Source: a virus
Direction: 5' to 3' (one strand)
IMG/VR virus record: IMGVR_UViG_3300033148_006102
Coordinates: 64,001-128,000 of that record
DNA: 64,000 nt
Shown here: piece after piece, positions 2,954 through 42,126 of the stretch
Position numbering within the stretch: the first letter of the stretch is position 1
How the letters are laid out: each line of letters opens with the position of its first letter
Position numbers and translations under genes: made by a program
Notes under the pieces: generated by a model
Databases searched by the model: none
The model's input: the letters and a program-made list of their open reading frames with translations, nothing else
What the model was told of the DNA's origin: nothing

Positions 2954-2962
2954 CTTGAGGAT

Positions 2963-3040
2963 GCCTAGCGAGGCCGAAGTAGTCGAGGCACTTGGTTGTG
3001 GTCCAAGGGGAAGTGGGCGCAAGTCCCATCGCTAGGCCCA
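2963..3040 (+). tRNA. tRNA-His(GTG)
   Basis: Encoded G-1:C73, CCTAGCG/CGCTAGG, loop TT-GTG-GT, CCA. Confidence 0.9.
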
Positions 3041-3050
3041 GATTGAAAGA

Positions 3051-3124
3051 GCGCCTGTAGTTCAATGGAAGAATGACAGCCTTCCAAGCTGTAGACGAGG
3101 GATCGATACCCTCCAGGCGCTCCA
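3051..3124 (+). tRNA. tRNA-Gly(TCC)
   Basis: GCGCCTG/CAGGCGC-T-CCA; loop CT-TCC-AA. Confidence 0.92.
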
Positions 3125-3158
3125 GCTCTTTGACATCTGAAACGGCCAAACAAAAAAC

Positions 3159-3228
3159 GGGCGTAGATACAGGCTCGATGCCTGTCCTTTCCCGGTTGGG
3201 TAAGGTAGCTTAACGCAAAGCGACGCCC
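3159..3228 (+). ncRNA. Circularly permuted tRNA-like RNA (closed acceptor, no anticodon loop)
   Basis: GGGCGT..ACGCCC outer stem enclosing a T-arm, an acceptor capped by GGTT, TA and a D-arm. Confidence 0.65.
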
Positions 3229-3233
3229 TTTTC

Positions 3234-3307
3234 GCCGCTCTAGCTCAAGGGCAGAGCGCCACTCTCGTAAAGTGGAGATCCCAGTTCGACTCTGGGGAGC
3301 GGCTCCA
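3234..3307 (+). tRNA. tRNA-Thr(CGT)
   Basis: GCCGCTC/GAGCGGC-T-CCA; loop CT-CGT-AA. Confidence 0.92.
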
Positions 3308-8021: not shown

Positions 8022-8208
8022 GCAATGTGTTGAAGAATACAAACAAAATCATGCCTGTTTTTGCCTATATTGCGGTCACGACGAGCTGATAGTTCAAGAG
8101 CGATCTGGTCCTAAGATCGAGATGAAACAGCTTGTGACGTGCCCCAAGTGCAAGAGGGCCTGGTGGGAATACTGGGGCTTGATCAGTGTTGAAGAAGCGC
8201 TAGCATGA
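8008..8208 (+). CDS. Small Zn-ribbon protein
   Basis: CLYC...CPKC. Confidence 0.6.
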   Translation: MRSFKQCVEEYKQNHACFCLYCGHDELIVQERSGPKIEMKQLVTCPKCKRAWWEYWGLISVEEALA

Positions 8209-8283
8209 GGCCTCGTCGTCTAATGAACAGGACACTACCCTCCGAAGGTAGAGATCCAGGTTTGAGTCCTGGCGGGGCTACCA
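8209..8283 (+). tRNA. tRNA-Arg(CCG)
   Basis: GGCCTCG/CGGGGCT-A-CCA; loop CT-CCG-AA. Confidence 0.9.
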
Positions 8284-8297
8284 ATTGAAAGGAACAG

Positions 8298-8783
8298 ATG
8301 AAGATTTTGCCCAAGCCATATGATTGGGATATATGCATGCTTGAGATGGCGGCCACACTCGCCAAGATGAGCAAAGATACGTCGACACAGGTTGGCGCAC
8401 TGCTTGTCAGCCCTGATAAGCGGCGCATGTCAGGAGGCTACAACGGCTTTCCGACGAACATTCCCGATTATGAGGACTGGTGGAATCGACGCGAAGACAC
8501 AGAAGGTGAATTTACCAAGTACGAGCTGGTGGTCCATGCTGAGGAAAACGCCATCTGCCAAGCGCGTACGGATCTCACGGGCTGGACGCTGTACTGCACG
8601 CATCAACCATGTCTTCGGTGTTCAAGGTTGATAGCTTCGCAAGGTATTCGACGTGTTGTATGGGATGCGGGTCATGAGGTGACGCGCATGGATCTACAAA
8701 CAGAGAAGGCGCTGAAGCTTTTCGAAGAAGCGGGAATCGAAGTACACACGATTCATTACCGGGATACATATAAGGGGGCGTAG
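8298..8783 (+). CDS. dCMP deaminase family protein
   Basis: SKDTSTQVGA, GYNGFP, VHAEENAI, PCLRC motifs. Confidence 0.92.
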   Translation: MKILPKPYDWDICMLEMAATLAKMSKDTSTQVGALLVSPDKRRMSGGYNGFPTNIPDYEDWWNRREDTEGEFTKYELVVHAEENAICQARTDLTGWTLYCTHQPCLRCSRLIASQGIRRVVWDAGHEVTRMDLQTEKALKLFEEAGIEVHTIHYRDTYKGA

Positions 8784-8851
8784 CTCAACGGAATTAGAGC
8801 GCTGGTCTACGGAACCAGAGGTTGAAGGTTCGAATCCTTCCGTCCCTACCA
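8774..8851 (+). tRNA. tRNA-Arg(ACG)
   Basis: GGGGGCG/CGTCCCT-A-CCA; loop CT-ACG-GA. Confidence 0.92.
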
Positions 8852-9076: not shown

Positions 9077-9262
9077 ATGGCAGAAGAATATGTGACATCG
9101 TTGGTGGACAAACCATCGATTGATATTACTGCACCAAAGGCAGTACAGATCGATATTCGTGAGGATGGGAAGGTGCTCTGGATCAACGTGGACGGGATCT
9201 GTCGTTTACGTTGTTGTCAGATTGAGCTCCTTGAAGTTGAAGACAGGCGAACGAAGAAATGA
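9077..9262 (+). CDS. Small hypothetical protein (in frame with an upstream GTG at 8867)
   Basis: AAGGAGAAGGA SD before ATG 9077. Confidence 0.6.
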   Translation: MAEEYVTSLVDKPSIDITAPKAVQIDIREDGKVLWINVDGICRLRCCQIELLEVEDRRTKK

Positions 9263-9567
9263 AGATGTATATTTTGGTCAAGGAGGATGTGCGCTTAGGC
9301 CTTGCCGCCGTAAGTATCGCGCACGCTGCCATGGCCGCCTATTTGGCATACAAAGACACGCCAGAAGTAAAAGAATGGCTCGCCGGTCCTTTCTACAAAG
9401 TTGTGTGTAAAGTGACTGCGCAAGAGATGGAGCAGGCTAAGGACGCCGGGGACTATGTCAGGATCACAGATTCAAACTATGCGGATGGGACTGTGATAAT
9501 TGCACTGGCATTCAAGCCGCGGGAAGAATACCCGAAGGCGTTCAAATACTTCAAGCTTTTCAAATAG
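9259..9567 (+). CDS. Peptidyl-tRNA hydrolase 2 (PTH2)-like protein
   Basis: MYILVKEDV...AVSIAHAA...FYKVVCKV...ALAFKPR pattern of PTH2-fold proteins. Confidence 0.75.
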   Translation: MKMYILVKEDVRLGLAAVSIAHAAMAAYLAYKDTPEVKEWLAGPFYKVVCKVTAQEMEQAKDAGDYVRITDSNYADGTVIIALAFKPREEYPKAFKYFKLFK

Positions 9568-9656: not shown

Positions 9657-9905
9657 ATGCTAGAACCACAGAAGACAAAACACATCAAAGAATACCCAGT
9701 CACCATAGAAACCATATTTCCTTTGGATACGTTTGACGTGCGATGGACAGAAGGTCCGGCGACGCAGCGCGTAAAGATTCGACAGGTAGAAACAGGAATC
9801 TATTTGATGTGCGACAACGATGTGCGCCCGCTCGAGGTCACAATTCCTTGGGAACGATTCTTCAATAAAATTGAAGAGCTCGTATTATCGAGCAAGCCGA
9901 TATAA
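9657..9905 (+). CDS. Hypothetical protein
   Basis: GAGGA SD and ATG 9657; ORF-track start 9573 lies inside the tRNA. Confidence 0.6.
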   Translation: MLEPQKTKHIKEYPVTIETIFPLDTFDVRWTEGPATQRVKIRQVETGIYLMCDNDVRPLEVTIPWERFFNKIEELVLSSKPI

Positions 9906-9981
9906 GCCCGCATAGCTCAACTGGGAGAGCGCCTGACTTACATTCAGGAGGTTGGGAGTTCGAAACTCTCTGTGGGCACCA
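9906..9981 (+). tRNA. tRNA-Val(TAC)
   Basis: GCCCGCA/TGTGGGC-A-CCA; loop CT-TAC-AT. Confidence 0.9.
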
Positions 9982-9982
9982 T

Positions 9983-10060
9983 GGCCGCATCGTCTAGTCT
10001 GGCTCAGGATACTGCCCTCTCAAGGCAGAGACGAGGGTTCAAATCCCTCTGCGGCTACCA
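9983..10060 (+). tRNA. tRNA-Glu(CTC)
   Basis: GGCCGCA/TGCGGCT-A-CCA; loop CT-CTC-AA. Confidence 0.9.
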
Positions 10061-10078
10061 CAATTTTGAGAAAGGAAA

Positions 10079-10154
10079 AGCCCCGTAGCTTAATTGGAAA
10101 AGCGTCCGCCTCCTAAGTGGTCAGATCTCGGTTCGACTCCGGGCGGGGCCGCCA
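10079..10154 (+). tRNA. tRNA-Arg(CCT)
   Basis: Loop CT-CCT-AA, T-loop TTCGACT, GCCA end; 1:72 mismatch. Confidence 0.82.
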
Positions 10155-10521: not shown

Positions 10522-10593
10522 GGCACACCCGCATGGTGCGGACTTGCCTCTCATAAGGGCAAAGATTGAGTTCGATTCTCAGGTGTGCCACCA
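10522..10593 (+). tRNA. tRNA-Ile2 or Met (CAT), short D-loop type
   Basis: GGCACAC/GTGTGCC-A-CCA; D-arm CCGCA-TGG-TGCGG; loop CT-CAT-AA. Confidence 0.8.
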
Positions 10594-10684
10594 AATTTCT
10601 CTTGCAACGGTGAATCGGCATAATAGGATTCACGCAGGACTTTATTTTGCCGGAACAGTCCGCCGGCTTACAAAGGAGATCGCA

Positions 10685-12082
10685 ATGATGCATCACAGTA
10701 ACTGTGTGGTCACGCTCTGTGACCAGGACAACCGCCCATTCAGAGAATACAGCCACCACCGCGAAGGCGACGCCTCTCGCGCTAAGGTTAGTATTTCGTA
10801 CGGAACTGAGTACAAGTTCATGTTCCGTATCAGGGACCATCTTCGCCGGCGCGTCGAGTTCACGATCGACGGGTCGCAGGTAGGCGAGCTCATCTTCGAG
10901 GGTAACTCGCAGACCTATCTCGAGCGCTTCATCGACAGCGCACGCAAGTTCAAGGTCGTACATCCGGAGAGTAGCGAGTGCCAGGATCCGGGTAATCCGA
11001 AGAACGGCCAAGTCGAATTGACGGTATGGACAGAGAAGGCGCCGCCTCCGCCACCACCAAGGCCTGCGCGGCGTGCATTCCGCAGCCGTGGTATCACGGG
11101 ACAGACCATAGGTTGTTCTGGTATGAACAGCCCCGTCTTTGGTTCTTCTGCAGGCTCACTGGGATCCGCAGGTCCTGAATATGAGATGTTGACCAACGGC
11201 GCGGCCGCAACAGGCGAGGGCGGTTACTCGAATCAGGAATTTGGGTCGACTACCTGGCGCGGCGACGCAGGTGAGCCGATTACCTTCCAGTTCAAGATTA
11301 TGGGGAAGGAAGATGAGCATGCGCCGAACAGTAAGTTCTTCTACTGTGCGAAGTGCGGTGATCAGGTTCCTGTAGGCTCTAATTATTGCGGCAGGTGTGG
11401 TGCGCATATAGCAAGCATGAATCCTGACGGGTGCACGATTCATCTCGGCATCGTGCTTGATGAGTCGTCATCTATGGAAGGCGACTGGGATATGACGATC
11501 GACGCGATCAACGAGTATCTCGATACGCTGCAGGGTGACGACCACCGATACAGGGTCTCGATCACAGCCTTCAATACGGTGAGTCGTCCGGTCTTTCATG
11601 CGACGGATCTGACGAAGGATGTCCGGATAAGTCGGCACAACTACCGGCCTAACGGTATGACGGCGTTGTACGACGCGATCGCGGATGGTATCGGTAGCCT
11701 CGAAGACAGCGTATGGGATTATGACGGCAAGGCCATGCTGGTGATCATGACAGATGGCCAAGAGAATAGCTCCAGGAACTTCAGCCTTGACCGGATCCGT
11801 AAGTTGATCTCGAGCAAAGAACGCGATGGCAACTGGACGTTTGTCTACATGGGATCGCACAACGATGCTTGGAAGCATGGCAGCGCGCTCGGAATTAGTA
11901 AGGCGAATGTCATGCAGTTTGATCAGGCACAGGCGCAGCCGTTGATGCGCGCGTTTGGTGCAAGTACGCAGGCATATGCCAGCAGCGCGGATGCAAACTC
12001 GCAGGCCATCTTCGCGTCGAATAAAGCGGATTACAAGAATATCGGCGCAACGGCGATAGACGATCATAAGGCGGATTGTTAA
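10685..12082 (+). CDS. Multi-domain protein: N-terminal unknown domain, Zn-ribbon, C-terminal vWA domain
   Basis: AAAGGAG SD; CAKC..CGRC; VLDESSSM (DxSxS MIDAS), TALYDAI, VIMTDGQENSS. Confidence 0.8.
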   Translation: MMHHSNCVVTLCDQDNRPFREYSHHREGDASRAKVSISYGTEYKFMFRIRDHLRRRVEFTIDGSQVGELIFEGNSQTYLERFIDSARKFKVVHPESSECQDPGNPKNGQVELTVWTEKAPPPPPPRPARRAFRSRGITGQTIGCSGMNSPVFGSSAGSLGSAGPEYEMLTNGAAATGEGGYSNQEFGSTTWRGDAGEPITFQFKIMGKEDEHAPNSKFFYCAKCGDQVPVGSNYCGRCGAHIASMNPDGCTIHLGIVLDESSSMEGDWDMTIDAINEYLDTLQGDDHRYRVSITAFNTVSRPVFHATDLTKDVRISRHNYRPNGMTALYDAIADGIGSLEDSVWDYDGKAMLVIMTDGQENSSRNFSLDRIRKLISSKERDGNWTFVYMGSHNDAWKHGSALGISKANVMQFDQAQAQPLMRAFGASTQAYASSADANSQAIFASNKADYKNIGATAIDDHKADC

Positions 12083-13508: not shown

Positions 13509-13584
13509 GGAGCGTGGCGCAATGGTATAGCGCATCGGTCTTTTAAACCGAGGGTTGTGGGTTCGAGTCCCACCGCTCCCACCA
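13508..13584 (+). tRNA. tRNA-Lys(TTT)
   Basis: GGGAGCG/CGCTCCC-A-CCA; loop CT-TTT-AA. Confidence 0.93.
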
Positions 13585-13585
13585 T

Positions 13586-13660
13586 TGGCGCGTAGTGTAA
13601 TTGGGAACACGGCAGACTCTGGATCTGCAGTAGAGGGTTCGATTCCTTCCGCGCCAACCA
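13586..13660 (+). tRNA. tRNA-Gln(CTG)
   Basis: TGGCGCG/CGCGCCA-A-CCA; loop CT-CTG-GA. Confidence 0.92.
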
Positions 13661-14759: not shown

Positions 14760-14818
14760 GACTGTGTAAGGGCAATCTTATGTGGGATGGCCCGTAATGT
14801 AACGGCTAGCACATGGAA

Positions 14819-14893
14819 TGCGGGATCGTTCAATTGGTAGGACACCTGACTTTGAATCAGGCAATGAGAGTTCAAATCTCTCTCCCGCAGCCA
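14819..14893 (+). tRNA. tRNA-Gln(TTG)
   Basis: TGCGGGA/TCCCGCA-G-CCA; loop CT-TTG-AA. Confidence 0.92.
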
Positions 14894-14907
14894 AAAAAGG
14901 AATAGCG

Positions 14908-15399
14908 ATGAAAAAACACAGTCATGGGAAATACGTGATGTTAGTGTTTTCCGATGGTACACGTGTTCTAGAACATCGCTATGTGATGGCGCGACATATT
15001 GGTCGGAAACTACATAGTGATGAAGTGGTGCATCATCGGAACGGAGACGGAAAAGATAATCGTCTACGCAATTTACGGTTATGGTCTTCGAACAGTGAAC
15101 ATACACAACATCACGCGCGGGAGCGTAGTCGAAGTGTCACATGCATGACCTGTGGTAGGTCCTTTGTGTTGAGCCTGGGCGAGTATACGCGCAGGAAACG
15201 TCGAGTAAAACATGGTTTGTACTGCTCACGCTCGTGTGCAGCGCGTTCACCATATACGCGGCGCGCGGAAAGCAAAATTGGTGATTACATACAGCTGTGT
15301 AAAGATTTACCAGGTATATCGATCAATGAAGCAGCAAGTATTCTGAGGGTTTGTCGTAGGACCATATGTAATTGGCGACGACGCCTGAAGAACAATTAA
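14908..15399 (+). CDS. HNH homing endonuclease (HNH_3-like) with C-terminal HTH
   Basis: EHRYVMARHIGRKL...VVHHRNGDGKDNRLRNL. Confidence 0.88.
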   Translation: MKKHSHGKYVMLVFSDGTRVLEHRYVMARHIGRKLHSDEVVHHRNGDGKDNRLRNLRLWSSNSEHTQHHARERSRSVTCMTCGRSFVLSLGEYTRRKRRVKHGLYCSRSCAARSPYTRRAESKIGDYIQLCKDLPGISINEAASILRVCRRTICNWRRRLKNN

Positions 15400-15435: not shown

Positions 15436-17031
15436 ATGGCGAACAAGTCAATTTTCAGCACCCAGCGGGGGCCTGTACATCGACAGTACGGGGAAAGTGT
15501 GAAGACCGTTGATACGGTCAATGAGGCAGGCGGAGAGGCTTACAGCTTCACAGCAAAGTCTGCATTGGCGCAGTTGGCATCGACGGGCTGCTTTGGCAAC
15601 ACGTTCTATGTGAATGCCAAGAGTCAGCTTGACAAGGTTCAGGAATTGTTGCCACAGGTTGACAGCGAGTTTTTGGCCAAGCTGGCCGTATATGCCCGCC
15701 AGAAGGGTTACATGAAGGACATGCCGGCGCTCATGCTCGCGTATCTCTTCGCGCATGCGAAGGATTCTGCGACAGTTGGCGCGTATTTCAAGGCAGCGTT
15801 CCCGGAGGTCATGGACAATGGCCGTATGTTGCGAAACTTTGTCCAGATCATCCGTAGTGGCGTCACCGGGCGTAAGTCGTTCGGTACGGCCGGCAAGCGT
15901 GTGATCCAGGACTGGTTGACTAACCGGTCATACTGGAAGTTGTTCGGCGAAGCAGTTGGCAATGATCCGTCGATGTGTGATGTGCTCAAGATGACGCGGC
16001 CGCATCCAAAGGATGATGAGCAGCGTGCATTGTTTGGTTACATCACTGATGCGAAGGAAGGTTGGGACCGCGAGGCTCTGCCGGACTTCGTGAAGGAATT
16101 TGAGGCCTTCAAGCAGGATCAGACCAAACCTGTACCGAACGTTTCATTCGAACGGTTGTCTGCCCTTCCGCTTGGAAAGGAACACTGGATCGAGATCGCC
16201 AAGAAGGCGACTTGGTTCCAGACGCTCAAATCTCTTAACACGTACAAGCGTCATGGGGCGCTTGAGCATTCTGATGTTGTCGACATTGTCGCTGAGCGTT
16301 TGGCAGATCTTGAGTTGGTCAAGAAGGCCAAGGTATTTCCGTACCAGATCTTTGTGGCTTACAAGGCCGCGAATGACCTGCCACGGAAGATTACTAATGC
16401 GCTGCAGGATGCGCTGGAGCACGCGCTCCGAAACATCCCATTTTATGAGGGCCAGGTTTACATCTTCCCAGATGTTTCCGGCTCAATGTTATGGGGTAAC
16501 TTGACAGGTCATTCGCAGAGTTCAATTCGTTGTATTGACGTGGCGGCATTGATCACCGCGGCGATCATGAAGACGAACTATCTGGCGGAAGTACTTCCGT
16601 TTGATACACGCGTGCATGATGCGAAGTCATTGAATCATCGTGATTCAGTAGTACGCAACGCAGAGATCTTGTCGCGCTTTGGCGGTGGCGGAACGTACTG
16701 CGAGCTTCCGCTGCGTGAACTGAACGACCGTAACGCGAAGGGCGACCTGTTAATCTACGTCTCGGATAACGAGTCGTGGGTCGGCGCCGGCTATCGCAGC
16801 CATACAGGCTTGCTCAATGAGTGGGCGAAGTTCAAGCAGCGTAACCGGCAGGCCAAGATGGTCTGCATTGATCTGCAGGCTAACACCAGCACGCAGGCAA
16901 CGGATACGCCGGACATCTTGAATGTCGGTGGATTCTCTGATCAGGTGTTCAACGTTATCGACGCCTTTTTGAAGGGTGGATCTGATAAGGAACATTGGGT
17001 CAAGGAAATCGAGAAAGTTTATCTAGGATAG
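15436..17031 (+). CDS. rsr: Ro60/TROVE RNA-binding protein (Rsr)
   Basis: NEAGGEAY, LAQLASTGCFGNTFY, YARQKGYMKDMP, MLRNFVQIIRSG, vWA DVSGSM, SDNESW, LNVGGFSDQVF. Confidence 0.95.
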   Translation: MANKSIFSTQRGPVHRQYGESVKTVDTVNEAGGEAYSFTAKSALAQLASTGCFGNTFYVNAKSQLDKVQELLPQVDSEFLAKLAVYARQKGYMKDMPALMLAYLFAHAKDSATVGAYFKAAFPEVMDNGRMLRNFVQIIRSGVTGRKSFGTAGKRVIQDWLTNRSYWKLFGEAVGNDPSMCDVLKMTRPHPKDDEQRALFGYITDAKEGWDREALPDFVKEFEAFKQDQTKPVPNVSFERLSALPLGKEHWIEIAKKATWFQTLKSLNTYKRHGALEHSDVVDIVAERLADLELVKKAKVFPYQIFVAYKAANDLPRKITNALQDALEHALRNIPFYEGQVYIFPDVSGSMLWGNLTGHSQSSIRCIDVAALITAAIMKTNYLAEVLPFDTRVHDAKSLNHRDSVVRNAEILSRFGGGGTYCELPLRELNDRNAKGDLLIYVSDNESWVGAGYRSHTGLLNEWAKFKQRNRQAKMVCIDLQANTSTQATDTPDILNVGGFSDQVFNVIDAFLKGGSDKEHWVKEIEKVYLG

Positions 17032-17037
17032 GAATTT

Positions 17038-17177
17038 GGGGCGAATGCGGACGGGATTACATTGATTCATAATCCGTTGGTCGGAGGTTCGAATCCTTCC
17101 CTCGCCACCACTATGGCGAGGTAGCTCAGTCTGGTAGAGCAGCGTATATGTCAAATCTCGTCGATTCTCGTCGCCCC
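17038..17177 (+). ncRNA. yrlA: YrlA-like Y RNA with permuted tRNA module
   Basis: GGGGCGA/TCGCCCC closing stem; T-arm, acceptor 3' strand with ACCA, acceptor 5' strand, D-arm in permuted order; directly after rsr. Confidence 0.85.
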
Positions 17178-17196
17178 ATCCTTTTCCTTCTTATTT

Positions 17197-17273
17197 GGGT
17201 GAATGCCGGTATGGGAGTACATTTCTGCGTGTAATGCTGAACCATGACCACTCTCTACCATCTTTCGTCACCC
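17197..17273 (+). ncRNA. Short Y-RNA-like RNA 2
   Basis: GGGTGA/TCACCC stem; shared GAATGC..TACATT and TCGTC motifs. Confidence 0.75.
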
Positions 17274-17285
17274 ACCCTTTTGAAA

Positions 17286-17353
17286 TGGCCGAATGCCGAT
17301 TGGACTACATTGTATCCATCACAAACAACGTCTAATCATAAGCTCGTCGGCCA
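17286..17353 (+). ncRNA. Short Y-RNA-like RNA 3
   Basis: TGGCCGA/TCGGCCA stem; GAATGC..TACATT; inner GATTGGAC/GTCTAATC stem. Confidence 0.75.
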
Positions 17354-17362
17354 TTTTCTTTT

Positions 17363-17759
17363 GGGGGTGAGTAGGATCGACTGGTCGTTACTGACTGGAA
17401 GAAGCGTGTCGCAGTTGACCAACACCTGCGTTATCAAGATGGTCGCAAACCCAGATGGCAACATCCATCACATGAGCGATTACGCTCGTCCGCAGCTTCA
17501 GGCTGCATAAAGGACAGCTCCGACCAGGTAGCTACCACACCTGGCTGCGGGATACCAACCCAAGGTGAGAAACCAAACAGAGTTAGGTCGGTGAACATGC
17601 CGCAGAGGGGATTCACCATCGAAGTTACGGCGGATAAGGCGTGACCGGGCTGTCGTCGGCTCAGAGGATCGCTCGAAAACATAGATGACGACTACACACG
17701 TAGAAGTGCCGGAATGATCGATACAGCACACGGGGTGCGACTCCCCGTCACCTCCACCA
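17363..17759 (+). ncRNA. ssrA: tmRNA; tag (A)ANPDGNIHHMSDYARPQLQAA
   Basis: GGGGGTG/CACCTCC-A-CCA with G3:U70, GGATCGAC 5' motif, PK1-like pairings, tag ORF 17445-17510 ending AA. Confidence 0.93.
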
Positions 17760-17765
17760 GATTTT

Positions 17766-17873
17766 GCCGTCGAATGCGGTGATAATTATTACCCCGCACT
17801 GAAAACTATTTCGGGAATTTGGCTACCGGAAATAGGCAGTAGGAAGCCGAATAGCCTACGGGGAATCGGCGGC
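17766..17873 (+). ncRNA. Y-RNA-like RNA 4
   Basis: GCCGTCGA/TCGGCGGC stem with the CGAATGCGG motif; internal hairpins. Confidence 0.55.
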
Positions 17874-17907
17874 CCATATTGAGAGCGCACGGGGGTTCCG
17901 TGCACGC

Positions 17908-36895: not shown

Positions 36896-37884
36896 TGGCC
36901 GACCAAGTCAATGTGTATTCGTCAACGCGCAACGGCATCAATCAGCTGCTAAACGGCAGTTTGCAGGCCATTGCTCGCGTGGTGGATTACGCCGATATGG
37001 CTTCGCCATTAACACCGTTTCGCGAAGGGGCCGTGCAAGATCCTGTATTGAATTCGGTGGTTAACATCGAAGAGGCCAAGCCGGCTTCCGAGACAATCGG
37101 CGGATGGAAATTCTGGGGTACTAAGGGACAAGCGTTTCATCGACGTACCCGTGGTGCCGGTGCCGTTCGTGATGGTGGCCATCGAGGGGGAGTATACGTC
37201 CAGGTTGACTTCTTGTTGGAAGGCACCATTTATATTGAGCAGCCGCTAGATCCTTTTGAGCATCTACTGTCACGGGTAATCACGTTTAGTGCAGGATTTG
37301 ATGCGGCAGAAGGTGCGGTTGACCTGCAACTACAACTCGTTGATGGTATAACTGTTGTAGCAGAATCCGACCCATTCTCGTCGGCTTTTCTGACTGGTTA
37401 TCAGCGGTTGAAGCTCGAAGCTACACTGGCAAATGATTTAAGCAGCTTGGCAGTACGGATTAAGGCCGTTGGTAAGCAAAATACAGCTTTTCGGTTTACT
37501 GATCTTTCGTTAAGTTTTGGTCAGCAGCGTTTGCTTGACACAGACTTGGCGCCAGATCTAGGTGAAATCGGCCGGCCAGGCGGCGCATTGATAATGGTGG
37601 TTGGCGATGCCTGTCCACCGGGATATCGCATCAATTGCGATCTTCTCAACCGGATCCCGTTCATGACGCACGGTGATATTTTAGCTGACGACGCGCAACG
37701 CGACACCGGCGAAGGTGGTGTATTTATTCACGATCATGGCGGAAGAAGTGGTCCTGCTATCGGGCATACGAAGGTGGCATACGGCGGAGGCACACATCTG
37801 TCGGGACACAGACATACTGTTGAAGCGTCGGATTTTACGCCACCTACGTTTCAGATCCTGTTCTGCGAGAAGATCGGTCCGTGA
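36895..37884 (+). CDS. Short tail-fibre-like protein (collar + HxH)
   Basis: NQLLNGSL, GDACPPGY, HDH, HRH, terminal CEKI. Confidence 0.6.
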   Translation: MADQVNVYSSTRNGINQLLNGSLQAIARVVDYADMASPLTPFREGAVQDPVLNSVVNIEEAKPASETIGGWKFWGTKGQAFHRRTRGAGAVRDGGHRGGVYVQVDFLLEGTIYIEQPLDPFEHLLSRVITFSAGFDAAEGAVDLQLQLVDGITVVAESDPFSSAFLTGYQRLKLEATLANDLSSLAVRIKAVGKQNTAFRFTDLSLSFGQQRLLDTDLAPDLGEIGRPGGALIMVVGDACPPGYRINCDLLNRIPFMTHGDILADDAQRDTGEGGVFIHDHGGRSGPAIGHTKVAYGGGTHLSGHRHTVEASDFTPPTFQILFCEKIGP

Positions 37885-38183
37885 GGAAGCGCCTTATACT
37901 GATATACGTTGAAGGTTGCAGTTTCTGCAAGCGTGAGCTCTATGGAGCTGCGGAACAGCTTGCGCATGAGATCGGATACGAGTTTTCGAAGCGTAAGCCT
38001 ACGATGCAAGAGCTGCAGACACGACGTTGGTCGGCTGGTTTTCCTGCTTTCGTGCTTGAGTGGGGACCGCACCAGCTGATTATGGTAGGTAACAAGGTTG
38101 TGCCCACGCTGGCTCGGTATACGGACGTTCTTCGGGAAGCTAATCTTACCCCGGCCGAATTAGCGCAGCACATCCAAACATAG
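37881..38183 (+). CDS. Thioredoxin/glutaredoxin-like protein
   Basis: CSFC motif and later GFPAFV (cis-Pro loop). Confidence 0.6.
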   Translation: MRKRLILIYVEGCSFCKRELYGAAEQLAHEIGYEFSKRKPTMQELQTRRWSAGFPAFVLEWGPHQLIMVGNKVVPTLARYTDVLREANLTPAELAQHIQT

Positions 38184-38193
38184 GTGATGCGCT

Positions 38194-41100
38194 ATGGCAT
38201 TCCAGATGGTAACCGCGGCTCTCAAGACCGCATTTGAGGGACAGGCCTACTCCGAACAAGTTCTCGCAATCGAACCTACTGGTGCTATTACGTACAGCAT
38301 CGTATCCGGCGCGTTACCGAGTGGTGTTACGCTAACACCGGCTACTGGTGTTGTTTCAGGTACACCAGCTGCAGGTACCGTTGGAACGTATACGGTCAAG
38401 TTTGACGCGGATGACGGTGCCACAACCGTCCAGACAGGCAACCTAACCTTTTCAGTGCTACCGGCGGCCTACAACCGGGCAGCCGAATTTCTGTTGCAGA
38501 ACAAGGTGCAAGTCGGCGCCGATCATGTTTATGGATCTGGCGTCGATCGCGTAGATCTTGAACGGCACTTCTTTGATCTGCCGTCAGACAAAACATATGT
38601 TCACGATGCGATTCGAATTCTGATGCAATCGGTGGCGGGCTATCCGGCAACGGATCGGTCAGTTGATCAAGTAGCGCGGGATCTGAATACGGCAATTACA
38701 GCGATCAGCGGCAAGGTTTTTGCCGAAACAACAGCTGCATTGGTTGACGGAAATACTGCGGCCTTAACAGATATCGGCGGTAATCAAGCAACTTTCCAGA
38801 TGACGGGTGCGATTTACTTCGGTAAGTCTGGAAGCGCAGACGCGGCGACGTCCCGATCATACGTACGAATTACAGACCCAACCACAGAAGACGAATACAC
38901 GGATGACGATGGAAACGAGCTCGTTATCGCATCGATCTATGACGATCAGGCAGTACCAGTTGAAATTAATCCAGATTTAAATGGCGCAACGCAAGTTGAT
39001 AGCGACGGTTTCTATGTGGGTACGACGGTAACGGTTACGGTCGGTTTCTCTGCCGGTTCCACCAATCCAAAGACATACATTGCAGCGCAACCGGATACAA
39101 ATCTTGTCGTTAATTATGGTCTGAAGAAGACGTTCCAGACTTTGACAGAGGCCGCGCTTTTCCGCAAAGCAAATATTACTGGTGAGGTCGATGCTGACAT
39201 CAAACAGTACATTGCGGAAATTAAAGGTGACGATTACTTTGCCACGCCCGCGATTGACTTAGTTACAGCAGCGGCAGCTATTGCGGCGTCAGCTAAATTC
39301 CTTGTGATTGGTCCGTCTGGTCATTATGCGGACTTTGATACGGCGCTTGCGGCGATTCTCGCGGACACCACAACATACCCAGCTGGTAGCTATATTTTCA
39401 TGACATTGCCGCCAGGTGTGACACAGTATTTGTCAGCTGATCGTACAATTGATCGTGATTTATCTATTACAGCTGTATCAGTTGCACCAATTACTGGATC
39501 AGCTAGTACGTACATAGCCAAGGATGGTACGGCCAACCCGTATCGGATTCTTGTAAGCGGCGGCAATTTGTATCTGGATTTACGGAATGTTGGTCTGCGT
39601 TGTCAGGATACTGCACCGGATGCAAATAAAGAATTGATCTATGTTTCAGGCGCCAATGACTGCTATGTGCATTTCCAGGATTTCAATGGCGGCGGTCAGT
39701 GTTTATGGTCCGAGCATAACGCGGCAACGGCAGTTATTCGACAGGATGTGGCAGGCACAGGAACCATCCGTTGTACTGTGACTGATGGCTGTTTAATGTC
39801 GATCGTTGCTCCTGCGACATATGTAATTGATGTCGCAGCCGGTGGGTTGGCGTTTATTGCTGTGTATGGTGATGGCGATTGGGAAGATGGCGCTTTGAAC
39901 GGCGCTCCAGGCGCTATCGGTAGTATCGCGCAGTACACAGTCATACCGACTAAAACAACGCCATCGGTTTCTGGTGGTATGACACGATTACCGACAAGAC
40001 CTCCACACATGTCTGTGCCAGCTCGATCTTCAGATCCGACACCTAGTGCGGTTCCTGCGGATGATAACGGTATGATGTGGTACAACACCGCATCACACCT
40101 TATTCGAGCATGCATCAATTCGGTCTTTGTCAGCATGATGTCAAACCCGATGACTACACAGGGCGACATCATTACTGGTGCAGCTAGCGGTGTGCCACAA
40201 CGGTTAGCGCTTGGGACACAAAATTATGTGCTGGCCGCTGGCGCAACAGACCCACAATGGATGAACCTTGTACCAATTACTACGCAGGGTGACATCATTT
40301 ATGGGAATGCGACGCCGGTACCTGCCCGCTTGCCGATCGGTTCCACAGATCAGGTACTAACGGTGTCAGGCGGTCAACCAGCGTGGGCGGCCGCGACACC
40401 TCTTACTACAGCCGGCGACATAATCCGTGGTGATACCGCTTCTGGTGATCCAGAACGTCTAGCATTAGGCGCGGCTGGTACTGTGTTGACATCTGTTGGT
40501 GGTCAGGCCGCATGGGCAGTACCTGGCTCTGGGACCTGGACCATCAATAACACGCAAGTCATTCATGTATCGGAGAATGGAAACGATGGTACTGGAGACG
40601 GAAGCCCATACAAGCCGTACTTAACGGTATCAAAGGCATTGACCGTGCTTGCGGCTTCTGGACCAACAGCCATCATGGTGCACGGCGATATTACCGAAAC
40701 CGCGGCACTGGATTTAAGTGGTTACAGTGATTTGGCAATCATCGGAGATGGCCAGGGTGTTAGCCGTATTCTCAACGCAACGACAAATACGACCATGATC
40801 GTGCTGCCAACGGCCGCCAAGTCGAATATCGCGATCATGAACATCATGCTTGAAAACACGGACGATGATCCGGCTAGTCAGGCACTTCGGGTCGGTACAT
40901 CGGGCGCGGCAGGATCCTTGACGAACCTGATTATTCACAATGTGCACTGCAAGGCACGTGGTGGACAAGACGGTATCGTGCGCCTTTGGGTGGACAACGC
41001 AAGTGGCTCTTGGGCTTCGTCTTCGATCACGAACTTGAGTATCGAATGGGGTACGATACCAACGGCGCCAGCGGTCACGACCGGATTGGACCTAACAGAT

Positions 41101-42126
41101 CTGCTTGACGCGTCTGCATCAATTCTTATCGATGGATTGCAATTTGTGAATCTGGGTTGGAGTGGTGCACACTCTGTCGATGCGTATGCAGTTGAAGTTA
41201 TGAATTCGACGGTTTATAGCAAAGTCATCATTAACAATATGCAGATGGATGTAGCGCCGATCGGTACAGGTCAGCGCGTAGGTGTAAAAGGCACCGGGGC
41301 TTCTACCGTCACCGTACAAAATTCAAAGATTCGAATTGACGCCGGTAACGACATCACGGGCAATGTCTACGGCATGCTTTACTGTTTAGCGCTTAATAAT
41401 GACGTTACTATCTATCGTGAGTTTGATGCAGCGCCGGGTTCATCTAGTACGACAGCCGGGATCGGTGCATTATTGAGCGGTTCTACTGGTAACGTCGGCC
41501 GGGTAATACTGCATACAACAGGTACTTGGACTCTAGCTGAGCTCACCGTAGGCTATTTTTGCAGCGCATTAAATCAGCATTACGGTGAAAACACGGGCAT
41601 ACTGCTGTTGGGTGGTGATGGTGGTGATACGCTAACGGCCAACGCGGATTACGGCATAGGTGGAGTATATGTACTCGGTAGTTCGCAACCAAGCTACCAC
41701 GCTACGCTTACTGGTGTGCTAGATACTGTGCGCAGTACTGGTGCAGGAATAGCCACATTTACCAATTTCCAAGCTACTCACATCCGCGCTATAAGCGGTG
41801 CAACACATATCGGCCATTTAGTTTCCGTGATGCTGGACACCGATGCGGCCAATACCGCGCTCACTACTTGTGCTGCGCTGGCTTTGGGGAAGGCTACCTT
41901 AGCGAACACCGTGATCATAGGTTCTGGGGTGTTAGCTTTTGTGGATCGGGGCGCTACCAGTGCTGCATATGCGGGTCCGGCTGTGGTGCATCGTCCTGAA
42001 ACAGGTTTTGGCGGTAATCCTTCACTTGTTAGGCCGGCTAATAATCTGGCTTATTCGAAATTTACGAGCGCCACAGACGCGACGGTTGCGGCAGGTCTTT
42101 CGACCACTAACATGGGTACTGTCTAA
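38194..42126 (+). CDS. Large tail fibre/spike: Ig-like N-terminus, fibre repeats, beta-helix
   Basis: YSIVSGALPSGVTLTPATGVVSGTP; three TTxGDII..RL.LG..W repeats; HVSENGNDGTGDGS..PYLTVSKAL. Confidence 0.7.
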   Translation: MAFQMVTAALKTAFEGQAYSEQVLAIEPTGAITYSIVSGALPSGVTLTPATGVVSGTPAAGTVGTYTVKFDADDGATTVQTGNLTFSVLPAAYNRAAEFLLQNKVQVGADHVYGSGVDRVDLERHFFDLPSDKTYVHDAIRILMQSVAGYPATDRSVDQVARDLNTAITAISGKVFAETTAALVDGNTAALTDIGGNQATFQMTGAIYFGKSGSADAATSRSYVRITDPTTEDEYTDDDGNELVIASIYDDQAVPVEINPDLNGATQVDSDGFYVGTTVTVTVGFSAGSTNPKTYIAAQPDTNLVVNYGLKKTFQTLTEAALFRKANITGEVDADIKQYIAEIKGDDYFATPAIDLVTAAAAIAASAKFLVIGPSGHYADFDTALAAILADTTTYPAGSYIFMTLPPGVTQYLSADRTIDRDLSITAVSVAPITGSASTYIAKDGTANPYRILVSGGNLYLDLRNVGLRCQDTAPDANKELIYVSGANDCYVHFQDFNGGGQCLWSEHNAATAVIRQDVAGTGTIRCTVTDGCLMSIVAPATYVIDVAAGGLAFIAVYGDGDWEDGALNGAPGAIGSIAQYTVIPTKTTPSVSGGMTRLPTRPPHMSVPARSSDPTPSAVPADDNGMMWYNTASHLIRACINSVFVSMMSNPMTTQGDIITGAASGVPQRLALGTQNYVLAAGATDPQWMNLVPITTQGDIIYGNATPVPARLPIGSTDQVLTVSGGQPAWAAATPLTTAGDIIRGDTASGDPERLALGAAGTVLTSVGGQAAWAVPGSGTWTINNTQVIHVSENGNDGTGDGSPYKPYLTVSKALTVLAASGPTAIMVHGDITETAALDLSGYSDLAIIGDGQGVSRILNATTNTTMIVLPTAAKSNIAIMNIMLENTDDDPASQALRVGTSGAAGSLTNLIIHNVHCKARGGQDGIVRLWVDNASGSWASSSITNLSIEWGTIPTAPAVTTGLDLTDLLDASASILIDGLQFVNLGWSGAHSVDAYAVEVMNSTVYSKVIINNMQMDVAPIGTGQRVGVKGTGASTVTVQNSKIRIDAGNDITGNVYGMLYCLALNNDVTIYREFDAAPGSSSTTAGIGALLSGSTGNVGRVILHTTGTWTLAELTVGYFCSALNQHYGENTGILLLGGDGGDTLTANADYGIGGVYVLGSSQPSYHATLTGVLDTVRSTGAGIATFTNFQATHIRAISGATHIGHLVSVMLDTDAANTALTTCAALALGKATLANTVIIGSGVLAFVDRGATSAAYAGPAVVHRPETGFGGNPSLVRPANNLAYSKFTSATDATVAAGLSTTNMGTV
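40150..40515 (+). repeat. Three tandem ~38-40 aa fibre repeats
   Basis: MTTQGDIITG.., ITTQGDIIYG.., LTTAGDIIRG.. each ending in W. Confidence 0.8.

What the first reader, a model, noticed from the sequence alone, without database searches (positions are those of the whole stretch)
3159..3228. Free-standing circularly permuted tRNA mimic with sealed acceptor end
Order: GGGCGT, AGAT, T-arm (ACAGG-CTCGATG-CCTGT), CCTTTCCC-GGTT-GGGTAAGG, TA, D-arm (GCTT-AACGCA-AAGC), G, ACGCCC. It keeps the elbow (D/T arms and connectors), but the acceptor is closed by a tetraloop and the ends open at the anticodon stem, so it can neither be charged nor decode. The topology matches the tRNA module of YrlA but there is no Ro-binding stem, and it lies about 14 kb from rsr between intact tRNAs. 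Inference: a decoy for elbow-recognising host factors, or a YrlA-derived RNA. Standard tRNA finders would probably miss it.
Basis: partly seen in the sequence, partly recalled or inferred. Interest (0 to 1): 0.8.

Follow-up and report, generated by a model that had tools for sequence, protein, structure and literature searches.

The report
Handle-less tRNA mimic in phage tRNA array
Between two tRNA genes of a 195-kb uncultured phage lies a 70-base gene for a tRNA-shaped RNA with rearranged arm order, a closed amino-acid end and no anticodon; it matches the tRNA-like part of known Y RNAs but lacks the stem that binds their partner protein Ro60, and whether it works or is a leftover is untested.

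Summary
Window 3159-3228 (+) folds into the stated four-way junction (MFE -30.2 kcal/mol, z -2.95). When un-permuted it is called a tRNA by ARAGORN. It keeps 8 of 10 canonical tRNA core positions (P about 3e-4 for random loops).

It has the permuted topology of the YrlA tRNA-like module. The Rfam YrlA model gives 21-24.5 bits against a cut-off of 69. A model built from four modules gives 72.9 bits, but the element was one of the four.

The Ro60 handle is absent. There is no GNCGAA motif in the 34-nt leader, and only 5 nt separate it from the next tRNA. A true, handle-bearing YrlA lies right after rsr at 17038-17180.

I scanned 15 phage records that encode Ro60 or a related helicase or vWA protein, including the nearest cultured relative, Myxococcus phage Mx1. 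All 17 other non-tRNA modules found (in 11 records) carry a handle-type motif upstream. This element is the only one without it.

No homologue of the element was found, so there is no covariation or expression evidence for it.

Best reading (0.45): a free-standing tRNA-body mimic, YrlA- or tRNA-derived, cut out of the tRNA operon. A relic is a serious rival (0.3). The elbow is not fully canonical (C54, no GG in the D loop).

Earlier notes of this scan report similar handle-less mimics in other phages; I did not verify them.

The parts
3159..3228 (+). Whole element: 70-nt circularly permuted, anticodon-less tRNA-shaped RNA gene
   Evidence: Fold; model R1/R2 hits; ARAGORN call after un-permutation
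3159..3164 (+). Closing stem, 5' strand (GGGCGU). Corresponds to the 3' strand of a tRNA anticodon stem (positions 38-43)
   Evidence: Pairs 6/6 with 3223-3228
3165..3168 (+). Variable-loop equivalent AGAU. Its last U can form the Levitt pair with A15 of the D loop
   Evidence: Read from the sequence; positional scoring
3169..3185 (+). T arm: 5-bp stem and 7-nt loop CUCGAUG (U55, C56, G57, A58 kept; position 54 is C)
   Evidence: (aligned to the YrlA T arm)
3186..3205 (+). Acceptor-like stem of 7 bp plus an extra C-G pair, closed by the tetraloop GGUU (3194-3197). One U.U mismatch. No CCA
3206..3222 (+). U8-A9 connector, D arm (4-bp stem GCUU/AAGC, 6-nt loop AACGCA) and G26
   Evidence: The same 18-nt D arm occurs in a predicted tRNA-Thr(UGU) of an unrelated viral contig
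3223..3228 (+). Closing stem, 3' strand (ACGCCC). Corresponds to the 5' strand of a tRNA anticodon stem
3125..3158 (+). 34-nt A-rich leader between the CCA of tRNA-Gly and the element. No GNCGAA/CGAA handle motif and no promoter call
3229..3233 (+). 5-nt trailer UUUUC, ending at the predicted RNase P site of tRNA-Thr(CGU)
   Evidence: The cleavage itself is inferred
3051..3124 (+). Upstream neighbour tRNA-Gly(UCC) with encoded CCA
3234..3307 (+). Downstream neighbour tRNA-Thr(CGU)
15436..17031 (+). rsr (Ro60 orthologue; TROVE and vWA_Ro60 domains), 12.2 kb downstream
17038..17180 (+). Complete YrlA with GGCGAAUG handle, the comparator. Its tRNA-like module lies at about 17075-17144
   Evidence: 64.9 bits, E 9e-15; gathering score 69

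Best explanation
The element is a real non-coding RNA gene. It has the architecture of the tRNA-like (effector-binding) module of YrlA-type Y RNAs: a circularly permuted tRNA body made of T arm, loop-closed acceptor-like stem and D arm, closed by an anticodon-stem equivalent. It lacks the Ro60-binding handle. It is transcribed as part of the phage's polycistronic tRNA precursor. It is freed by the enzymes that mature its neighbours: RNase P cutting 5 nt downstream at +1 of tRNA-Thr, and 3' processing of tRNA-Gly upstream. The product, about 70-105 nt, cannot decode. It most likely acts as a free tRNA-body mimic that occupies a factor recognising the T arm/D arm region of tRNA, possibly the still unknown YrlA effector, without recruiting Ro60. 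Shown: the fold, the tRNA-like core positions, the architectural match to true YrlA modules, the absence of the handle, and the position and strand in the tRNA operon. Inferred: transcription, processing, stability and any binding partner.
For: The fold is well defined. Eight of 10 tRNA core positions are kept, including the A15:U48 Levitt option that Chen et al. 2014 describe for YrlA, P about 3e-4 (PMC4201824). ARAGORN accepts the un-permuted body, but 0/1000 shuffles and only 7-8% of stem-preserving controls. Rfam YrlA aligns the T arm, sealed stem and D arm at 21-24.5 bits, genome-level E 5e-4. The single-sequence model R1 finds the true YrlA modules of this phage (23.8 bits), Bxz1 (17.6) and Mx1 (16.5). 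The four modules share all four helices: 94% of cells paired and 18 of 23 pairs with compensatory changes, against 38-46% paired when the partners are slid. That alignment was fitted to the model. Twenty-two of 23 pairs are intact, which argues against long neutral decay. All tRNAs, the tmRNA and rsr are on the same strand, and a promoter-like site lies upstream at 2287-2314. Handle-bearing YrlAs also sit inside tRNA arrays far from rsr in Mx1 (11.6 kb) and Myrna (about 36 kb), so tRNA arrays are a normal home for this module.
Against: No homologue of this element was found, so no covariation or conservation speaks for it specifically. There are no expression data. The elbow is non-canonical: C54 and one G in the D loop, whereas the YrlA crystal structure uses two D-loop guanines (bioRxiv 10.1101/312249). 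In 15 phage records scanned it is the only handle-less module. That fits an accident as well as a specialised function. The Rfam score is far below the gathering score, and tandem tRNA junctions score similarly with that model.
Confidence: 0.45

Rival explanations
1. Non-functional relic: a YrlA copy that lost its handle when the array was rearranged, or a leftover of a tandem duplication of one tRNA gene. It is transcribed only because it sits in the operon.
For: It is unique among 18 modules in 15 phage records, and every other module keeps a handle. The core is degraded at T54 (C), G18G19 is missing and the stem has a U.U mismatch. The 3' flank is only 5 nt, as if a handle strand had been replaced by tRNA-Thr. 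Mx1 has a full YrlA directly after tRNA-Pro(UGG) in its array, and here a tRNA-Pro(UGG) lies two tRNA-sized slots upstream. No homologues were found.
Against: Twenty-two of 23 base pairs and 8 of 10 core positions are intact. The ends are flush with a perfect 6-bp closing stem. The acceptor loop is a tight tetraloop rather than a decayed CCA plus spacer. The short GG-less D arm also occurs in a predicted intact tRNA-Thr(UGU) elsewhere, so it need not be decay.
Confidence: 0.3
2. Cis-acting processing or stability element: a tRNA-shaped punctuation mark that guides or blocks nucleases on the polycistronic precursor. For example, it could protect the 3' side of tRNA-Gly or set the leader of tRNA-Thr. 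It would have no role in trans.
For: It occupies a tRNA-sized slot, 34 nt after one tRNA and 5 nt before the next. tRNA-like structures are recognised by RNase P and RNase Z (general knowledge; M. smegmatis YrlA is cut by RNase P, PMC4201824).
Against: Other spacers of the same array work without such an element. The detailed retention of tRNA core nucleotides is more than a simple nuclease block needs.
Confidence: 0.1
3. Pro-form of a two-piece or re-joined tRNA. Either RNase P opens the sealed stem and CCA is added, as in M. smegmatis YrlA. Or the ends are ligated: joining 3233 to 3159 would give a 7-nt loop CUUUUCG (anticodon UUU), and the acceptor end would then be opened, as for the permuted tRNA genes of red algae.
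For: The acceptor-like stem has 7 bp (PMC4201824 names this as the RNase P determinant). The trailer length happens to give a 7-nt loop with U33 (read from the sequence).
Against: The loop would have C37 and G38, or collapse to 5 nt through a C32-G38 pair. A 4-nt cap leaves no single-stranded leader for RNase P. No RtcB or Rnl-type RNA ligase family was found in the phage genome. The phage already has tRNA-Lys(UUU). No splicing-endonuclease pathway is known in bacteria (general knowledge).
Confidence: 0.05
4. A chance fold in an intergenic spacer.
For: A minus-strand fold is equally stable. The z-score on the plus strand is moderate (-2.95).
Against: The tRNA core positions have P about 3e-4 given the stems. 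ARAGORN/1000 shuffles. The model cross-hits true YrlA modules. The T-loop consensus reads only on the strand of all neighbouring genes.
Confidence: 0.03

Closest known systems
YrlA-type Y RNAs of bacteria and phages (Rfam RF02553; Chen et al. 2014, PMC4201824; Wang et al. 2018, bioRxiv 10.1101/312249, PDB 6CU1)
   Same: Same permuted order: anticodon-stem strand, variable loop, T arm, loop-closed acceptor-like stem, U8-N9, D arm, N26, anticodon-stem strand. It keeps U8, A14, A21, a 15:48 Levitt option, U55, C56, R57 and A58. It is encoded in a Ro60-carrying phage. Like the YrlAs of Mx1 and Myrna, it lies among tRNA genes.
   Different: No GNCGAAN0-1G motif and no handle helix. It is 70 nt rather than about 115-145 nt. 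It lies 12.2 kb from rsr. It scores 21-24.5 bits against a gathering score of 69. The T loop starts with C, and the D loop has one G instead of the conserved GG.
The phage's own YrlA at 17038-17180
   Same: Four-helix module with a 7-bp acceptor-like stem. The stem has similar ends (CCU..CC / GG..AGG) and shares AGGUAGCU. The two are 59% identical over the aligned module.
   Different: The own YrlA has the GGCGAAUG handle, a canonical UUCGAAU T loop, GG in the D loop, and an ACCA-containing 8-nt loop on the acceptor stem.
Circularly permuted tRNA genes (red alga Cyanidioschyzon merolae; recalled from memory, not read here)
   Same: The 3' half of the tRNA lies upstream of the 5' half.
   Different: Those genes encode a complete tRNA, including the anticodon loop, and mature through a circular intermediate. 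This element has no anticodon-loop nucleotides and no known ligation route.
Junctions of tandem tRNA genes (a false-positive class noted by Chen et al. 2014)
   Same: T arm, then two acceptor strands, then D arm in the same order. Scores with the YrlA model are similar (window 13553-13610 and 10030-10103).
   Different: In this element the two acceptor strands pair with each other, and so do the two outer strands. No tRNA gene overlaps it.

Membership tests
YrlA (RF02553) | GNCGAAN0-1G motif near the 5' end (proposed Rsr/Ro60 contact) | tested here: not met
   No CGAA anywhere in 3125-3158. The nearest plus-strand GNCGAANG sites are at 1424 and 3345. The Y RNAs at 17040, 17288 and 17769 have it.
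YrlA (RF02553) | Terminal handle helix formed by the 5' and 3' ends | tested here: not met
   Only 5 nt (UUUUC) lie between the closing stem and tRNA-Thr +1. The best extension is three A-U pairs after a mismatch.
YrlA (RF02553) | T stem-loop and D stem-loop flanking a loop-closed acceptor-like stem (tRNA-like module) | tested here: met
   Deviations: C54 and a single G in the D loop.
YrlA (RF02553) | Score at or above the Rfam gathering threshold (69 bits) | tested here: not met
   21 bits and 24.5 bits.
YrlA (RF02553) | Encoded next to rsr | tested here: not met
   It lies 12.2 kb upstream of rsr. This criterion is soft: the handle-bearing YrlAs of Mx1 and Myrna are 11.6 kb and about 36 kb from rsr.
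YrlA (RF02553) | Bound by Rsr/Ro60 in vivo | not testable with these tools
   Needs immunoprecipitation or EMSA.
tRNA (RF00005) | Contiguous cloverleaf with anticodon loop and free acceptor end | tested here: not met
   No tRNA hit even at E up to 10. ARAGORN finds nothing at relaxed thresholds. It is called only after in-silico un-permutation with an added loop.
Permuted tRNA genes | Both halves together encode a complete tRNA, including the anticodon loop | tested here: not met
   The closing stem ends flush. Joining the trailer to the 5' end gives CUUUUCG with C37. No RNA ligase family was found in the phage.
Permuted (two-piece) tmRNA (RF04321) | tRNA-like domain plus a tag reading frame | tested here: not met
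   10.4 bits, E 4.2, covering only a T arm. The phage has a standard tmRNA at 17363-17759.

The most novel reading that the evidence does not exclude
The tRNA-like module of Y RNAs can work on its own. Phages would place handle-less, anticodon-less, end-sealed tRNA mimics in their tRNA operons as free RNAs that bind a host or phage factor recognising the tRNA body, independently of Ro60. That factor could be the unidentified YrlA effector, a tRNA-processing enzyme or a tRNA-targeting defence protein. This element would then be one member of a recurrent, undescribed class; unverified earlier notes of this scan report similar cases in at least four other phage genomes.
Probability: 0.3. Interest if true: 0.75.

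Novelty: new variant of a known kind. Interest (0 to 1): 0.5.

Why it matters
[quoted passage not shown] 2018). A natural version of that domain without the Ro60 handle would be a clean bait for finding it. It would also show that the module has a function separable from Ro60. In addition, it would add a class of phage small RNAs that tRNA finders and Rfam thresholds miss. That matters for reading the large tRNA islands of big phages and their conflicts with host tRNA-directed defences. If it is only a relic, it still records how Y RNAs and tRNA arrays exchange parts.

Tried and rejected
1. Exact-pattern scans gave only chance hits or one unrelated tRNA, and no homologue. The patterns were the T arm (17-mer, viral contigs), the D arm (18-mer, viral contigs) and the D arm (19-mer, metagenome contigs).

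2. Neighbour-protein routes did not find a syntenic array. The 842-aa fibre-like protein and the 501-aa protein have no relatives in viral contigs. Homologues of the 842-aa protein lie in tail modules of other phages, and their records could not be searched whole. Relatives of the vWA and Ro60 proteins in IMG/VR hold no tRNAs or modules nearby.

3. BLAST of each half against cultured phages found nothing.

4. A tRNA-Thr origin is not supported. The D arm is identical to a predicted tRNA-Thr(UGU) in L063. However, the 3'-half identity (24/33) is matched by unrelated tRNAs (mean 18.8, maximum 24), so no parent tRNA can be named. My first two similarity tables were wrong for the 3' halves because wrapped ARAGORN sequence lines were read. 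One search corrects them.

5. An own promoter is unlikely. TTGACA at 3130 has no -10 partner, and the scan finds none.

6. A minus-strand gene is rejected. The fold is equally stable, but the T-loop and core positions read only on the plus strand, and every neighbouring gene is on the plus strand.

7. An attP-like half-tRNA is rejected. The phage has direct terminal repeats, and its nearest cultured relative by Ro60 is Mx1. I did not search for an integrase, so this rejection rests on kinship only.

8. A decayed handle in the leader (UGAAACGG against CGAAUGCGG) is too weak a match to claim.

Full report
**What is there.** The window is bases 64001-128000 of a 195,108-bp IMG/VR virus record with direct terminal repeats. 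RNAfold returns one dominant structure: -30.2 kcal/mol, 37% of the ensemble, z -2.95. It consists of:
- a 6-bp closing stem;
- 4 unpaired nt;
- a 5-bp/7-nt hairpin;
- directly abutting it, an 8-bp hairpin with a tetraloop and one U.U mismatch;
- 2 nt;
- a 4-bp/6-nt hairpin;
- 1 nt, then the closing stem.

ARAGORN finds 28 tRNAs in the window, which are all the tRNAs of the genome. Rfam finds 24 matches at gathering score (23 tRNAs and a tmRNA). Neither calls this stretch. It lies 34 nt after the CCA of tRNA-Gly(UCC) and 5 nt before +1 of tRNA-Thr(CGU), on the strand of every neighbouring gene.

**Is it tRNA-like beyond its shape?** In tRNA numbering the order is: 38-43, variable loop, T arm, 66-73, cap, -1 to 7, U8-A9, D arm, G26, 27-32.
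- I un-permuted it in silico and added a generic anticodon loop. ARAGORN then calls a tRNA.
- It calls none of 1000 full shuffles, and only 7-8% of controls that keep the stems but randomise the 20 unpaired letters.
- Eight of ten canonical positions are present: U8, A14, A21, A15:U48, U55, C56, R57, A58. P is about 3e-4 for random loops.
- The two misses are position 54 (C) and the G18G19 pair (one G only).
- So the elbow is not fully canonical. In the YrlA crystal structure, two D-loop guanines build the elbow (bioRxiv 10.1101/312249).
- A predicted intact tRNA-Thr(UGU) in an unrelated viral contig has the identical D arm with this short loop. That loop is therefore compatible with a tRNA-looking gene.

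**Relation to YrlA.**
- Rfam RF02553 aligns the T arm, sealed stem and D arm at 21 bits and 24.5 bits (genome-level E 5e-4). This is far below the gathering score of 69 and in the range of tandem-tRNA junctions, a false-positive class that Chen et al. 2014 also note.
- Unlike such junctions, the element's two acceptor strands pair with each other, as do its outer strands, and no tRNA overlaps it.
- rsr (TROVE and vWA_Ro60 domains) is at 15436-17031.
- Directly after it, at 17038-17180, lies a complete YrlA: 64.9 bits, E 9e-15, with a GGCGAAUG motif, a 7-bp acceptor-like stem and a loop containing ACCA.
- A model built from the element alone finds the modules of that YrlA (23.8 bits), of mycobacteriophage Bxz1 (17.6) and of Myxococcus phage Mx1 (16.5).
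- The four modules share all four helices: 94% of cells paired and 18 of 23 pairs with changes on both sides, against 38-46% paired when partners are slid. The caveat is that this alignment was fitted to the model.

**The handle is absent.** Chen et al. (PMC4201824) define YrlA by a 5' GNCGAAN0-1G motif plus the T, acceptor-like and D stem-loops. The 34-nt leader contains no CGAA at all. The trailer is 5 nt long. No terminal helix can form beyond three A-U pairs.

**Comparison with other phages.**
- The nearest cultured relative by Ro60 (45% identity) is Myxococcus phage Mx1. It has the same island of tRNAs, tmRNA, vWA protein, PTH2 and rsr.
- In Mx1 the full, handle-bearing YrlA lies inside the tRNA array, directly after a tRNA-Pro(UGG) and 11.6 kb from rsr.
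- I scanned 15 phage records with the four-module model R2. These were: this phage, Mx1, Bxz1, Tonenili, Myrna, Limpid, PacManQ, Big4, Frankenweenie and GMA2; the IMG/VR helicase relatives G006 and G007 and the vWA relative G008; and two provirus records, G009 and G010.
- The top hits that do not overlap tRNAs are 18 modules in 11 records. Frankenweenie, G007, G008, G009 and G010 yielded none.
- Seventeen of the 18 carry a handle-type motif upstream: GNCGA(A/G/C), or a GNCGG/GCCG/ACCG variant in a few. Most also carry a CGGUUAUC-like box. The element at 3159 is the only one without either.
- Five further Ro60-bearing IMG/VR fragments gave no hit at all.

**Origin.**
- Identity is 36/61 to the phage's own YrlA module and at most 44/62 to its own tRNAs. 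The data do not separate a YrlA origin from a tRNA origin.
- The acceptor-like stems of the element and of the own YrlA share their outer pairs. This is suggestive but weak.
- The phage's tRNAs encode CCA and the element does not. It is therefore not a recent junction of two of them.

**Function.**
- Nothing here shows expression.
- From context, the RNA would be made with the tRNA precursor; a promoter-like site lies at 2287-2314. It would be released by tRNA-processing enzymes.
- My preferred reading (0.45) is a free tRNA-body mimic that engages a factor recognising the T/D region, without Ro60.
- A relic of array rearrangement is a serious rival (0.3). The element is unique in the sample, has a weakened elbow, and no conserved homologue was found.
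- A cis-processing role (0.1), a two-piece or re-ligated tRNA (0.05) and chance (0.03) rank lower. For the re-ligated tRNA, no RtcB or Rnl family was found in the genome, and the loop would be CUUUUCG.

**Known or new.** In the searchable literature I found YrlA and its phage members, but no description of a handle-less, free-standing module. Earlier notes of this scan report similar handle-less mimics in tRNA arrays of other phages. I could not check them, and they share no sequence with this element. I therefore class it as a new variant of a known kind.

Noticed in passing
window 17038-17180: Complete YrlA directly after rsr. It scores just under the Rfam cut-off (64.9 against 69 bits), so a gathering-score scan misses it. 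Its 7-bp acceptor-like stem is followed by ACCA in an 8-nt loop, the configuration that made M. smegmatis YrlA an RNase P and CCA-adding substrate (PMC4201824).
   Followed up: partly
window 17190-17360 and 17760-17880: Further Y-RNA-like handles (GGUGAAUGC near 17197, GCCGAAUG at 17288, GUCGAAUG at 17769) flank the tmRNA at 17363-17759. This suggests a cluster of about four Y RNAs with the tmRNA in between.
   Followed up: partly
window 2954-3050: The 97-nt spacer between tRNA-Pro and tRNA-Gly folds into a cloverleaf-like shape. It has a 9-bp terminal stem followed by CCA, and a 5-bp/7-nt hairpin whose loop UUGUGGU would present a GUG (His) anticodon. The T loop is odd (CGCAAGU). ARAGORN does not call it, even at relaxed thresholds, nor does the Rfam tRNA model. 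The fold z-score is only -1.3. It may be an aberrant tRNA-His or nothing.
   Followed up: partly
window 8298-8783 and 8774-8851: A cytidine/deoxycytidylate-deaminase-family protein (PF00383, E 6e-20) ends inside the start of tRNA-Arg(ACG). That is the tRNA whose A34 is deaminated by TadA-type enzymes, so this may be a phage TadA paired with its substrate.
   Followed up: no
window 9259-9567, 10544-12082, 2343-2888, 14818-15399: The tRNA island also holds a PTH2-type peptidyl-tRNA hydrolase, a zinc-ribbon/vWA protein and an HNH endonuclease with an HTH tail (14818-15399). The 181-aa ORF at 2343-2888 has HNH-like cysteine/histidine motifs by eye but no Pfam hit.
   Followed up: no
L027 (Myxococcus phage Mx1, OR576727.2) 8182-8458 and 9732-10109: The Mx1 record lacks annotation for a handle-bearing YrlA (locus 8255-8383), for two flanking tRNA-Pro-like genes (8182-8251 and 8385-8458) and for a tmRNA (117.7 bits). 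The tmRNA overlaps a small CDS annotated as a Hef-like endonuclease.
   Followed up: partly
Microbacterium phage Big4, ON637770.1 99966-100034 and 100234-100299: Two handle-bearing YrlA-like modules lie 3 kb upstream of rsr. The second overlaps a 68-nt feature annotated as tRNA-Ser(cga), which ARAGORN does not call. This is probably a mis-annotated Y RNA.
   Followed up: partly
Mycobacterium phage Myrna, NC_011273.1 92712-92782 and 95190-95252: Handle-bearing YrlA-like modules sit inside the tRNA array, about 36-38 kb from rsr, in addition to one beside rsr (131170-131233).
   Followed up: partly
L100, L103, L106, L107 (IMG/VR contig with a 39%-identical helicase), record 37682-41717: A run of at least four YrlA-like modules within 4 kb, each with a GCCG/ACCG...GAUUAUC-type handle. 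The 3' flanks show further handle motifs. This is a multi-copy Y-RNA array in a distant relative.
   Followed up: partly
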